Below are positions 50,196 through 64,000 of a stretch of 64,000 nucleotides of DNA, one piece after another. Every line of letters begins with the position of its first letter. The stretch's first letter is position 1. Origin of the DNA: Balanoglossus misakiensis (Eukaryota; Animalia; Hemichordata); contig CM082576.2 in NCBI GenBank assembly GCA_040954595.2, positions 17,717,028-17,781,027 of the forward strand, read 5' to 3'. Under the pieces are notes generated by a model. It ran no database searches, was not told where the DNA came from, and worked only from the letters and a program-made list of their open reading frames with translations. The translations under genes were made by a program, and so were the position numbers.

Positions 50196-51467
50196 ATGGC
50201 AACCTCTACATGTATTGGAAATATATTGGACCCACTAGGTTTGGGACACCTCTCTGATAAATTCACTTATGAGAAAATAACCCCTGCCATGGTATGTAAA
50301 TTATCAGTTGTAGACATGGAGACACTTGGCCTGAACAATAGAGCTGATATGATGGCACTGCGTGTTGCTTGCGTTAAATTTGGAGGAAAAGCACCTGCTA
50401 AAGCATTGGGACTCAATGGTGGTGCTCCTCTGTTTAACATTCCAAAATGTGTGTTGGAGCATCTTCTTGATGAAGAATTTAATATTGCTGATGTCGCATC
50501 AATGTTATCTGTTTCTGAGAGTACCATTTACCGAAGAATGAGACAGTATGGTCTTAGTAAAATGGACTTCTCAGATATAAGTGATGAGGACCTTGATGTC
50601 AATATCAGGCAGCTAACTTCTGATTTTCCATATTGTGGTGAAAACCTGATTAGGCAGATGTTACATGCTAAGGGGATCAAGGTCCAAAGGATGAGGTTGA
50701 GAGACAGCATCCACCGTGTTGATAGCATTGGTGTTGAATCAAGGAAGAAAGGCCGCTTACAGAGGCGTATATATAATGTCCAAGGACCAAACCACTTATG
50801 GCACATCGACACAAACCACAAGCTTGTGAGGTGGCATTTTATAGTATTTGGAGGAATCGATGGTTTCAGTCGCCTACCTGTTACTTTATCGTGTATAGAT
50901 AACAACCAGGCATCTACCCTGTTGCAGCTCTTTATGGCTGGTGTTGAGAAGTACGGCCTACCCAGTCGTGTGAGATCAGACATGGGTTTGGAAAACATAG
51001 ATATAGCGGAGTATATGGTCACAAATAGAGGCCCAAACAGGGGGAGCATGATAACAGGTAAAAGTGTCCATAATCAACGAATTGAAAAGCTTTGGAAGGA
51101 CGTCTATGAAGGAGTGCTAAGTCTGTACTATCAACTATTCCACTTCATGGAGGATAATGGCATCCTTGATCCACTAAATGAATTACACATAGCTGCACTT
51201 CACTATGTATTCATGCCAAGGATCAATGAAAAGCTGGAAACATGGAGGAATGCCTGGTCTCGCCACAGAATGCGCACAACGAAATCATCTCCACATCGAC
51301 TGTGGATTTCTGGGCAGTTTCAGGATCCTGTGGGGATAGAGGAGATTTCTTTGGATGGATATGGTGTTGAAGGCATTGTCTATGGTGATGAGACAGAACA
51401 AGAGGCTGATACAAGACCATCAGCCATCATTTTCAAAGTGCTGCCAAATTCCAGAGGAATTGAATGA
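50196..51467 (+). CDS. IS3/IS481-type DDE transposase with N-terminal SAM-like domain and HTH
   Basis: SAM-like [17 protein letters not shown]....CKLS..DMETLGL...AD...[25 protein letters not shown]; core [41 protein letters not shown]. The C-terminus may be shortened. Confidence 0.9.
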
Positions 51468-51937
51468 CTATGTCAACATGAAAAGTTCGCAAGTTCAAAC
51501 CCATAGTTCATACAATGGGTAAATACACCATCCTGAAAAGAATTTTCTCATGTTTTGACCACATACATTATGTCAGGAAATACAATCTTGAACCAAGTCT
51601 ATCTCTCTGTAAATAAGTAAAACACATTTATGCAGTCCTTTGGTTAAATTTGTTGCACATGTTTAAAGGCCCAGTAACACAAATTTTGGCCATTTAAGTA
51701 CTTTGTATTTGTAAACACAAGGTTGCTATAAAATATAAAAGCAAAACGTACATATATGAGAGATATTCCCAATAAACTATGAAAGTGAGCACTTGCCCAA
51801 GTTTCTGCATACAACGATTGTTTATCTTTCTCTGTGTCAACACAAGTAGCTTCAACAGTACCTCTACGAGTATGGTGAGAACATACATCTATCACTAAGC
51901 CTCCAAGGTTTAGGAGAATTGTGCTTCAATAGCTTAA

Positions 51938-52556
51938 AGGGGAAATCCGTCGTAGCTGATTTCTACATAATTTGGTAGCTTTGATGTCACTCTTTCAGAA
52001 AAAAAACATATTCGCCATGTATAGGTCGCGCGATTTTTTACAAAATCTAGGGAAAGTTGGCAGAATTTCCAATATGGCGTTTACTGTAATTTGAATCATG
52101 GGAAAAAAAGCGCCAGGACCAACTTCCGCCCACCATGGTGTGGGTGATACCATTCTCCGATAGGTGTCACTGGGCGACAGACTAGGCGTATTTTCATAGC
52201 TATTGTTTGTTCTTTGCATCAGTTGATAAACAATCATCAGCAAAGTCGAAAATTTGTCATCTATTGACAGTTTTCATGAGCTATAACCCATGGAAAATAT
52301 GCAAATACGCTTAGCTTGTGACGCAGTGACACCCATCGGAAAATGGTATCACCCACACTAAGGCGGGCGGAAGTTGGTCCTGGCGCTTTTTTCCCATGAT
52401 TCAAATTACAGTAAACGCAATATTGGAAATTCTGCCAACTTTCCCTAGATTTTGTAAAAAATCGCGCGACCTATACATGGCGAATATGTTTTTTTCTGAA
52501 AGAGTGACATCAAAGCTACCAAATTATGTAGAAATCAGCTACGACGGATTTCCCCT
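51938..52556. mobile_element. Kolobok-like foldback MITE with ~220-bp TIRs
   Basis: TTAA TSD; aggggaaatccgtcgtagctgatttctac... near-perfectly inverted at the right end. Confidence 0.85.
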
Positions 52557-62058: not shown

Positions 62059-63485
62059 ACATTAAAGTGTAAAATGAGACATAACTACAGTTTTTCATCT
62101 ATTTTCACACGGTGTCCAGACTCGGCCATTCACTGATGACCAAGCTTAAGTTCACACACTATTTTTAAACCTCAGAAGCAAGTTAAGCAAATTCTATGTA
62201 ATAAGATGTGCTGCTGTTTATGCATTCAACTGCCAAACAGTACACCTGGTATGCAAGAGATTTGATTTTGCCTTTTGGCAAGTGGTTTCACTGTTCAGGT
62301 GTGATAAATTTAGACAAAATTGTTCCAGATTTGTGCCAGAGAAAAAACATTGTTCCCAATGTCATCACTACAAATGTGCATGTGTTAATGTTGCCCATTT
62401 ATGAATGTCTATCAATGGACAAAACATTTTATTGGGAAATCAGTAAGAAAAGAGTAGTTTTTACCTTTTTTACTTCGTTCTCCTTTAAAAAGTGTTCAAA
62501 ATTCTGGTGAGCATCAGTTGTTTAAACCGATTCGTGTAGTAGTCACAAGTTTTAGAATAGAACTGTACTCTGTAGTATATTATATTGTGCTTGATCGACC
62601 AGTTTAGGGTTTAACCTTCTGTTAGATGTTTACTATAACACTTGGAAATAAAAAATGATACTCTGTTCATAAATTAGTTGTGTATGTTCATTAAAGTGTG
62701 TGTGAACACCATTATGTCATGAAACGAGGTAATGCTGTACTAATGTCAGTGTGTGTGTGTGTGTGTGAATATGACATAGTGTGTGACATTTGGGAATTAT
62801 GACTTGCTAATTGACAGCTAATTTGCATATTTAATGATTCTATGCAATTAGCAATACAACTCTTGAAATACTGTTCTGATATTCATGAAATTTGCCAGCT
62901 TATACTGTTTTTTACACAGATCAAACAAAACCTCACTGCTGCCATTTTGGCAATAATTTCAGATTTTCAACATTAATTTGGTGTATTTGCAATATATCAT
63001 AAAACTACAGTAAGAATCCCAAACTGATCTTAGGGGAGAACCATTTGATTTTTTTGGGTGGGGGGGGGGGGTTATTGCAGAAGGAAACAAATTCATTTGC
63101 AATGCCATGTTTGAAATGGAGTAAAGAATGTCACACAAGTTAGAAAATCTCATTCTTTCATTTTTAGGCACTTGTCAGTTTATGAGCAGTTTATTCTTGT
63201 CCACCGTTCATTTGAATAATTTGGCAATCAAAATGATAGGTAAAATGAACAAATCTACGCTATTTTGATTTTTATGAATATATTTTATTAGATTCAAAGA
63301 CAATCTTACTACCATGTTTGCTTGGATTACTACCAATTTAAAAATGCGGTAGTCACAACTGATTGCTGCGAAAAATGTTTATTTCGAGCCATGTTTTGCA
63401 GCAAGTATATCACAGACTGGACTGGAAAATGTCGCTCTCCCGTTGGTGAAGGAAGCGCCCTCAATCGACGGGTTTACATGTCTAA

Positions 63486-64000
63486 TTATACACCATCATT
63501 TGCGCACATAAGTAAATGCTCATACAGCTCTTTTGCCTCGCGCCAATTTGCTGGTTCGGACAGGTTTAAATATCGAAACACATATTGGAAATACTCCTGG
63601 TTTTCATTATTATAATCTACTTCAATGATTAGGGTTTCTGCATAATTTATTTCATGTTCTGGTACAGGCAACATCAAATTGTCAGTGCCACCATGGTGCT
63701 CTGGGAGGAAATACAATGAATCAGGTCTCCCACTGACGGTTTCATGTCAAGATTTTCTTATGTAGTGTGTGTTCCAATTTTCCTTCACATGATTTAAATC
63801 TTCTTGGAGGAGACGGGCAAAACAAAACCACAAACACTCCTTATGTAGTGTGTTACTACTGTCAAAGGTACCCTGTGCTTCAAAATCTTCTTACGATTGA
63901 TCCACCATGTCGAATGATTTCTGCGCAGAAACGACCACCATGCCTCAATTCTTTGATTACGTTGTGATGCAACATATCTATGTGCATCTGAGTTATCGCG
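63486..64000 (-). pseudogene. C-terminal part of IS3EU-like transposase of element 2
   Basis: Minus strand reads HRYVASQRNQRIEAWWSFLRR...WWIN/DFE...ECLWFCF..LLQEDL..VKENWNTHYIRKS*HETVSGRPDSLYFLPE; one frameshift and one stop. Confidence 0.85.

What the first reader, a model, noticed from the sequence alone, without database searches (positions are those of the whole stretch)
50196..64000. Swappable polymerisation modules: prediction for the transposase beyond the window
Two diverged elements share the architecture (repeat array, HECT gene, convergent transposase) but use different head-to-tail polymerising domains on the ligase: SAM versus TDP-43 NTD. They also differ in intron number (5 versus 1). 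If the domain is a family-specific pairing tag, the element 2 transposase, whose 5' part lies past 64000, should start with a TDP-43-NTD-like or other ubiquitin-fold domain rather than SAM.
Basis: inference. Interest (0 to 1): 0.75.

Follow-up and report, generated by a model that had tools for sequence, protein, structure and literature searches.

The report
Transposon ubiquitin ligases swap N-terminal caps
Two nested cut-and-paste transposons each carry their own ubiquitin-ligase gene, one capped by a SAM domain and one by a copy of the front domain of the animal protein TDP-43, but the cap is likely an exchangeable first exon rather than a tag matching ligase to transposase, and the second transposase likely lacks it.

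Summary
The domains are real: the element 1 ligase starts with SAM (5 introns), the element 2 ligase with a TDP-43 N-terminal domain (1 intron), and the element 1 transposase carries a related SAM. The elements are nested, not side by side. The prediction likely fails. None of 34 relatives of the element 2 transposase carries a TDP-43 domain. Contigs from one sample that holds this DNA fork at 59327, 76 bases before the TDP-43 exon, into a second arm opening M-D-D-A-F-T-P, probably the transposase start; this was not read directly. Of 8 families with both N-termini visible, 4 share a cap class, 3 do not and 1 has no cap on either protein. In one family (L006/L008) the shared zinc-ribbon exon lies inside the terminal inverted repeat, which offers a simple cause of matches. 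Both ligases hold a predicted ubiquitin-fold domain before HECT. A second TDP-43-capped ligase, on another HECT branch, occurs on a probable sponge contig. No paper linking IS3EU to HECT ligases turned up in my searches. Whether the TDP-43 cap targets host TDP-43 is untested.

The parts
47327..48681 (-). Gypsy-type RT/RNase H fragment into which element 1 is inserted (flank, not part of the elements)
   Evidence: Pfam RVT_1 and RT_RNaseH; the similarity stops at the element 1 terminus
48682..48745 (+). Element 1 left terminus (TATGG...); 48676-48681 is the candidate 6-bp target duplication
   Evidence: the matching right end lies past 64000, so the duplication is unverified
48746..49932 (+). 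Element 1 left subterminal 21-bp array (about 57 copies)
50196..51467 (+). Element 1 transposase, 423 aa: N-terminal SAM (about residues 6-60), HTH, rva_4 DDE core; C-terminus shorter than in relatives
52000..52495 (.). Foldback (MITE-like) insertion between the two genes of element 1
   Evidence: 109-nt arms, 99% complementary
53005..57702 (-). Element 1 HECT ligase gene, exons 57702-56755, 56178-55900, 55455-55323, 54572-54436, 54121-53946, 53264-53005: SAM, predicted ubiquitin-fold domain (57420-57055), UBZ-like finger, HECT with PTANTC motif; frameshift near end of exon 5
58226..58669 (.). Short insertion with inverted ends upstream of the element 1 ligase
   Evidence: read by eye; very high contig depth at 58600-58780
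58718..58821 (-). Element 1 right subterminal array (inverted copy of the left array), interrupted by element 2; 58816-58821 is the candidate target duplication
   Evidence: other copies continue the array at 58821 (joints)
58822..59327 (+). Element 2 left terminal inverted repeat (TACGG start, second 21-bp array 58865-59282); inferred to end at 59327, where contigs fork
59403..59664 (+). Element 2 ligase exon 1: TDP-43 N-terminal domain, keeps the equivalents of E14, E17, E21, Q34, R52, R55
60140..62058 (+). Element 2 ligase exon 2: predicted ubiquitin-fold domain (60271-60630), acidic linker with 27-bp repeat, HECT with PKANTC motif; in-frame stop at 61582 that a contig of run X2 lacks
63486..64000 (-). 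3' part of the element 2 transposase (rva_4, Clr5-HTH clade), with a frameshift near 63890 and a stop at 63747-63749; 5' part lies beyond the window

Best explanation
Two IS3EU/GingerRoot-type DNA transposons are likely nested here, each pairing a DDE transposase with a convergent HECT ligase gene whose N-terminal cap (SAM or TDP-43 domain here, zinc ribbon in relatives) likely behaves as an exchangeable first-exon module and not as a pairing tag, so the element 2 transposase likely has no TDP-43 domain. Shown: both genes start just inside the terminal repeats. In L006/L008 the repeat runs over the ligase's first exon and into intron 1, so both ends carry the same start. Inferred: when one arm is copied onto the other, both genes get the same cap, which then drifts apart (zinc ribbon in L014 and L015, SAM in element 1). 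A cap gained inside the repeat boundary, as in element 2, stays on the ligase alone. Inferred function: the ubiquitin-fold domain plus HECT is the working core, and the cap would cluster the ligase by head-to-tail self-association or dock it on polymers of the same fold. The substrate, own transposase or a host restriction factor, is untested.
For: Repeat over exon 1: in L006, 87 nt at 94% identity cover the exon end and intron start at both ends. In L008 the identity runs up to the ligase ATG, with the exon deleted in the transposase arm. L014 keeps weaker similarity through the ATG. Repeats also run into transposase coding DNA in L032 and L046. Element 2 fork: in X1 a shared 59-nt contig (depth 287) splits at 59327 into the ligase branch (37+78) and a loose end with an ATG, seen in X1 and X2 (one sample). 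No contig with many differences was listed over the TDP-43 exon. Relatives: 0 of 34 carry PF18694; 20 of 33 rows match Clr5 and 1 a zinc ribbon; 0 of 150 best NTD hits match my transposase or HECT profiles; 0 of 168 transposase proteins match a 53-sequence NTD profile at a meaningful level (best E=0.59). Mismatched pairs: L003/L004, L028, L050. Caps scattered over the HECT tree. Both middle domains are predicted at pLDDT 90 and 85 and their top PDB hits are nearly all beta-grasp folds.
Against: 4 of 8 families do share a cap class, and L088 has SAM on neither protein; this also fits selection for matching. The SAM is kept across the 47 transposase rows aligned (corals and bivalves among named hits), so it is probably functional there. 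The loose arm shows only 7 codons and could belong to a sister or non-autonomous element. Small first exons are common in this clade (L005, L006, L031, L052) and single-exon gene calls miss them; only 26 of 72 loci had 800 nt or more upstream. The SAM-like caps in L028 and L050 are weak (hhalign 33% and 10%; no Pfam or PDB hit). L003/L004 is internally deleted. Fold hits have E above 1e-3 and TM about 0.5, and the two middle domains show no sequence likeness. The HECT tree is a quick tree with long branches.
Confidence: 0.6

Rival explanations
1. Pairing tag: the ligase finds its own transposase through a shared polymerising domain, so caps are matched within each family. It may hold for the SAM clade only.
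For: SAM on both element 1 proteins, same subtype, closest solved relatives are polymerising SAMs such as Bicc1 and tankyrase. Zinc ribbons on both proteins in L006, L014, L015. L088 lacks SAM on both.
Against: 3 of 8 families mismatch. No TDP-43 domain on any transposase examined. The own partner is not the closest cap, although element 1's transposase copy may be decayed. Shared DNA in the repeat explains the clearest match. A zinc ribbon is not a known head-to-tail polymer (recalled).
Confidence: 0.2
2. Host-target model: the TDP-43 cap would co-polymerise with host TDP-43 and bring the HECT domain to ubiquitylate it or its partners, easing repression of the element.
For: The charged interface residues that PMC5491494 shows are needed for polymerisation (E17, E21, R52, R55), plus E14 and Q34, are kept in the window and in P0155. 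The cap occurs in Ptychodera flava (62% identity over 59% of the query) and a similar lone domain in Saccoglossus. A second such fusion sits on another HECT branch. TDP-43 is reported to restrain L1 (listing only).
Against: N45, S48 and N76 are not kept and there is a loop insertion. The same residues serve self-association. Most relatives work without this cap. The TDP-43 reports seen concern retrotransposons in mammals, not DNA transposons. No binding test was possible.
Confidence: 0.15
3. The caps are captured passengers with no role; GingerRoot elements are known to pick up gene fragments.
For: PMC6839031 has a section on acquired gene fragments (passage). Caps vary freely and both window copies carry lesions.
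Against: The TDP-43 exon is spliced in frame and kept between the window and P. flava with interface residues intact; the fusion appears twice; the SAM is kept across the aligned transposases.
Confidence: 0.05

Closest known systems
IS3EU/GingerRoot superfamily (Kojima and Bao 2023, PMC10045372, passages; Cerbin et al. 2019, PMC6839031, part 2 of 7 and passages)
   Same: TA termini, 6-bp target duplications in complete relatives (L008, L050, L088), integrase-like DDE transposase with the NQRIE-type motif, long terminal repeats.
   Different: Neither paper contains the word HECT or ubiquitin. Repeats here are longer (about 500 bp in element 2) and can cover the first exon.
TET+ IS3EU families of rust fungi (Kojima 2025, PMC12730594, passages)
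   Same: TAYGG...CCRTA ends, 6-bp duplications, an accessory enzyme gene (alpha-kinase) in opposite orientation to the transposase.
   Different: Accessory genes are alpha-kinase and TET/JBP, not a HECT ligase; HECT is not mentioned.
Maize MuDR (Hunter et al. 2023, PMC10401008, passages)
   Same: Works like it in layout: two genes with promoters in the terminal repeats; the paper proposes copying of one arm onto the other to explain repeats that extend far inward.
   Different: Unrelated transposase superfamily; the passages read do not describe a shared coding exon between the two genes.
TDP-43 N-terminal domain (Afroz et al. 2017, PMC5491494, passages; PF18694)
   Same: Clear sequence homology, same charged head and tail residues, domain on its own exon ending in a phase-1 intron.
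   Different: Fused to a ubiquitin-fold domain and HECT in place of RRMs; N45, S48, N76 not kept; longer loop.

Membership tests
IS3EU/GingerRoot | DDE transposase of the IS3EU/GingerRoot lineage | tested here: inconclusive
   PF24764 E=4e-78 for element 1 and 9e-6 for the element 2 piece; motifs resemble the GingerRoot stretch printed in PMC6839031, by eye. No tree with Repbase reference sequences was built.
IS3EU/GingerRoot | TA...TA termini (TAYGG in some families) | tested here: met
   Left ends TATGG 48682 and TACGG 58822; both ends in L008, L050, L088. Right ends of the window's elements lie past 64000.
IS3EU/GingerRoot | 6-bp target-site duplication | tested here: inconclusive
   Met in L008, L050, L088, L092, L106; cannot be checked for the window's two elements.
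IS3EU/GingerRoot | Terminal inverted repeats | tested here: met
   Element 1 arrays are inverted copies; element 2 second arm inferred from contigs; complete repeats in relatives.
HECT E3 ligase | HECT domain with catalytic cysteine motif | tested here: met
   PF00632 E=2e-7 and 1e-6; PTANTC and PKANTC present. Activity not tested.
TDP-43 NTD polymer | Head and tail interface residues | tested here: inconclusive
   E14, E17, E21, Q34, R52, R55 kept; N45, S48, N76 not.
TDP-43 NTD polymer | Head-to-tail self-association | not testable with these tools
   Needs NMR, EM or cross-linking.
   4 matches, 3 mismatches, 1 with neither among 8 families; element 2 an inferred mismatch.

The most novel reading that the evidence does not exclude
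Animal IS3EU transposons have captured the TDP-43 polymerisation domain at least twice (hemichordate-type and probable sponge elements) and fused it to their own HECT ligase, making an enzyme that joins host TDP-43 filaments and ubiquitylates this transposon-restraining protein; terminal repeats that creep over first exons shuffle such caps between ligase and transposase.
Probability: 0.15. Interest if true: 0.85.

Novelty: new variant of a known kind. Interest (0 to 1): 0.55.

Why it matters
It would explain some multi-copy 'G2E3-like' and 'TDP-43-like' annotations in marine invertebrates as transposon genes. It gives a concrete route, terminal repeats growing over a first exon, by which two unrelated proteins come to share a domain without selection for binding, a caution for co-evolution arguments. 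A natural TDP-43-NTD-HECT fusion is also directly testable as a binder of TDP-43 oligomers.

Tried and rejected
No whole genome is held, so the DNA past 64000 could not be read. Laid contigs give at most 30 loose letters; X1-X3 are one sample and may be the window's source; no RNA holder was listed. Viral contigs: no relatives for either transposase alignment. The complex prediction of the two element 1 SAM domains was not available. ESM Atlas gave only leads under 0.9. My first two-sequence NTD profile missed the real cap in L119, so I repeated the scan with a 53-sequence profile, which finds it; its other hits were L125, L127, L129 and a weak one in a repeat of L092 (E=0.006). In L119 a transposase piece lies just upstream of the TDP-43-capped ligase on the same strand, but its 5' part is interrupted, and none was found beside the second copy, so this pair could not test the prediction. 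Partners of the SAM-like transposases in L091 and L114 were unreadable. I first took CCGTA at 58835 for element 1's right end; rejected, because it belongs to element 2's left end. The NTD tree groups the window, P0155 and P0189 (support 92) but does not resolve a donor. The careful transposase tree did not finish; the quick tree was used. Literature searches with no relevant paper: IS3EU+HECT 0; TDP-43+N-terminal domain+transposase+HECT 0; HECT+transposase+DNA transposon+ubiquitin ligase 3 papers, 2 listed, unrelated by title; G2E3+transposon+HECT+expansion 1, unrelated; unrelated. Repbase entries and paper supplements were not seen and may mention the ligase.

Full report
Observation. The minus-strand gene at 57702-53005 has six exons, an N-terminal SAM (E=6e-5), a UBZ-like finger and a HECT C-lobe. 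The plus-strand gene at 59403-62058 has one phase-1 intron; exon 1 is a TDP-43 N-terminal domain (Pfam E=7e-19; PDB E=4e-19) and exon 2 ends in HECT. Each faces an rva_4 transposase. The element 1 transposase begins with a SAM related to its ligase's SAM (hhalign 95.8%; SAM_1 in 17 of 47 aligned rows at E up to 0.5; the alignment used 46 of the 120 listed hits). Both copies carry lesions. A contig in run X2 lacks the two in-frame stops of element 2, so other copies probably differ.

Boundaries. Element 1 starts at TATGG 48682 inside a Gypsy-type RT fragment. Element 2 starts at TACGG 58822, against element 1's right array. A contig of depth 213 begins at exactly that base, and another continues element 1's array without element 2. 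Element 2 is therefore likely nested in element 1, with both right ends past 64000. The nearest named relative of the element 2 ligase is from Ptychodera flava and carries the same TDP-43 domain, so the host is probably a hemichordate (inference).

The gene pair is a family trait. Among 113 loci (best 80 of 513 confirmed metagenome stretches; 33 genome contigs), 50 had 2 kb or more downstream of the transposase. Of these, 23 show a convergent ligase-gene hit and 0 a same-strand HECT; L038, L050 and L091 show one by eye. L008, L050 and L088 are complete, with TA ends and 6-bp duplications. L092 and L106 carry a protein kinase instead. Earlier AI notes of this scan report the same pairing in other genomes; these are leads, not support.

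Test of the prediction. The genome is not held, so I used three indirect lines. First, relatives: 34 proteins (of 107 candidates) match the element 2 transposase piece and none has PF18694. In the alignment of 31 of them plus two window pieces, they start with a short leader and a Clr5-type HTH. Second, the domain's side: 0 of the 150 best NTD hits (of 414) match my transposase or HECT profiles, and none of 52 scanned in Pfam has rva_4. A 53-sequence NTD profile finds no convincing hit upstream of a transposase in 131 loci or in 168 transposase proteins. Third, contigs of one sample: a 59-nt contig at 59269-59327 (depth 287) forks into the ligase branch (37+78) and a loose end that opens an ATG 8 bases later and reads M-D-D-A-F-T-P. 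A diverged arm (9 differences, 2 gaps) runs into the same loose end. This is what the far arm of a terminal repeat should look like, and L002 and L004 start their transposase the same way. No diverged contig was listed over the TDP-43 exon. Limits: only 7 codons are seen, the arm could be a sister element's, and small first exons exist in this clade. I put the chance of a TDP-43 domain on this transposase at about 10%.

Do caps match across families? Both N-termini were readable in 8 families. Matches: element 1 (SAM), L006/L008, L014, L015 (zinc ribbon). Mismatches: L003/L004 (short leader, zinc-ribbon ligase; internally deleted), L028 and L050 (hydrophobic leader, weakly SAM-like ligase). 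L088 has neither. Matches are not partner-specific: the element 1 ligase SAM ranks its own transposase 29th of 47, and the L014 and L015 ligase ribbons rank theirs 2nd and 8th of 9.

Why matches arise. In L006 the end of the ligase's zinc-ribbon exon and the start of intron 1 are the same DNA at both ends of the element (87 nt, 94%; the contig edge cuts the transposase arm, leaving 13 exon bases). In L008 the repeat runs to the ligase ATG and the exon is deleted from the other arm. L014 keeps weaker likeness through the ATG. The sister transposase in L005 has the whole exon. Repeats also cover the first transposase codons in L032 and L046. Passages of PMC10401008 describe promoters in MuDR's repeats and propose arm-to-arm copying for repeats that extend inward. 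I infer that the same process hands one first exon to both genes, after which the copies drift. Element 1's two 5' regions show no DNA likeness today, so a SAM transfer would be old and its direction is unknown. In element 2 the repeat stops 76 bases short of the TDP-43 exon, which fits a cap on the ligase only.

What is constant. Behind the cap both ligases have a compact domain predicted with high confidence (pLDDT 89.9 and 85.4). The top PDB matches are nearly all ubiquitin-like folds, though none passes E=0.001. Caps map across the HECT tree without order (quick tree, long branches). A second TDP-43-capped ligase, with an element 1-type middle domain, lies in two copies on contigs of G003 (PF18694 E=5e-8 and 1e-6). 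These contigs are intron-rich host DNA in a MAG, probably sponge (inference). Its HECT does not group with element 2's, which suggests a separate capture.

Mechanism. Most likely (0.6) the ubiquitin-fold domain plus HECT is the working accessory enzyme, and the cap is an exchangeable clustering or docking module. The window's TDP-43 cap keeps E14, E17, E21, Q34, R52 and R55 but not N45, S48 and N76; passages of PMC5491494 show that E17/E21 and R52/R55 are needed for polymerisation. So it would likely self-associate, and may join host TDP-43. The substrate is unknown. Rivals: a pairing tag, perhaps valid for the SAM clade (0.2); targeting of host TDP-43 (0.15; its role against L1 seen only as a search listing); passenger (0.05). 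No binding prediction could be run.

Known and new. The elements fit IS3EU/GingerRoot in termini, repeats and, in relatives, duplications (PMC10045372 and PMC12730594, passages; PMC6839031, part 2 of 7 and passages; bioRxiv 2021.09.26.461848, passages). My searches found no paper joining IS3EU with HECT or a TDP-43 domain with a transposon ligase; Repbase and supplements were not seen. Verdict: observation confirmed, swappable caps supported, the specific prediction likely wrong. New variant of a known kind, interest 0.55.

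Noticed in passing
L119:11231-4016 (-) and L131:10386-7142 (-): Second TDP-43-NTD / ubiquitin-fold / HECT gene, NTD split by an intron, two copies 96% alike; in L119 it follows a transposase on the same strand rather than facing it.
   Followed up: partly
L092:9068-17128 and L106:8813-17153: Complete elements with TA ends and 6-bp duplications whose convergent gene encodes a protein kinase (IRAK/Pelle-like by eye) instead of a HECT ligase.
   Followed up: no
L028, L030, L033, L038-L041, L049, L050, L072 (transposase starts): Several transposases begin with a hydrophobic, signal-peptide-like leader before the HTH, odd for a nuclear enzyme; most fall in one part of the tree.
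   Followed up: no
L132:13609-13385, L133:16731-16534 and 12135-11907 (-): Three near-identical TDP-43-NTD exons within 40 kb of a G001 contig, with no RRM, HECT or transposase hit in the 40 kb fetched.
   Followed up: partly
L032:7369-9988, L046:1807-5379, L109:4701-13342: Elements whose inverted arms both contain the transposase 5' end, or a larger part of it.
   Followed up: partly
L091:9384-9710 and L114:6622-7340 (+): Transposases on host-like contigs with an intron-split SAM-like N-terminus (Pfam SAM_1 E=0.006 for L091).
   Followed up: partly
L080:3754-3317 (-): Kinase-like ORF convergent to a Clr5-clade transposase.
   Followed up: no
window 1-47300: Dense stack of retroelement ORFs by eye (Gypsy-like 25274-30547 and 37041-42157, Copia-like 17187-21418, LINE-like 32684-34660, Pao-like 1-1733, DIRS-like 22694-23857 and 31567-32463).
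   Followed up: no
window 3695-4372 and 13899-15371: Related 50-51 bp and 45 bp arrays at two places about 10 kb apart.
   Followed up: no
proteins P0196, P0197 (Meloidogyne), P0193, P0194, P0245, P0266: Proteins with two or three tandem TDP-43 N-terminal domains and no RRM hit.
   Followed up: no
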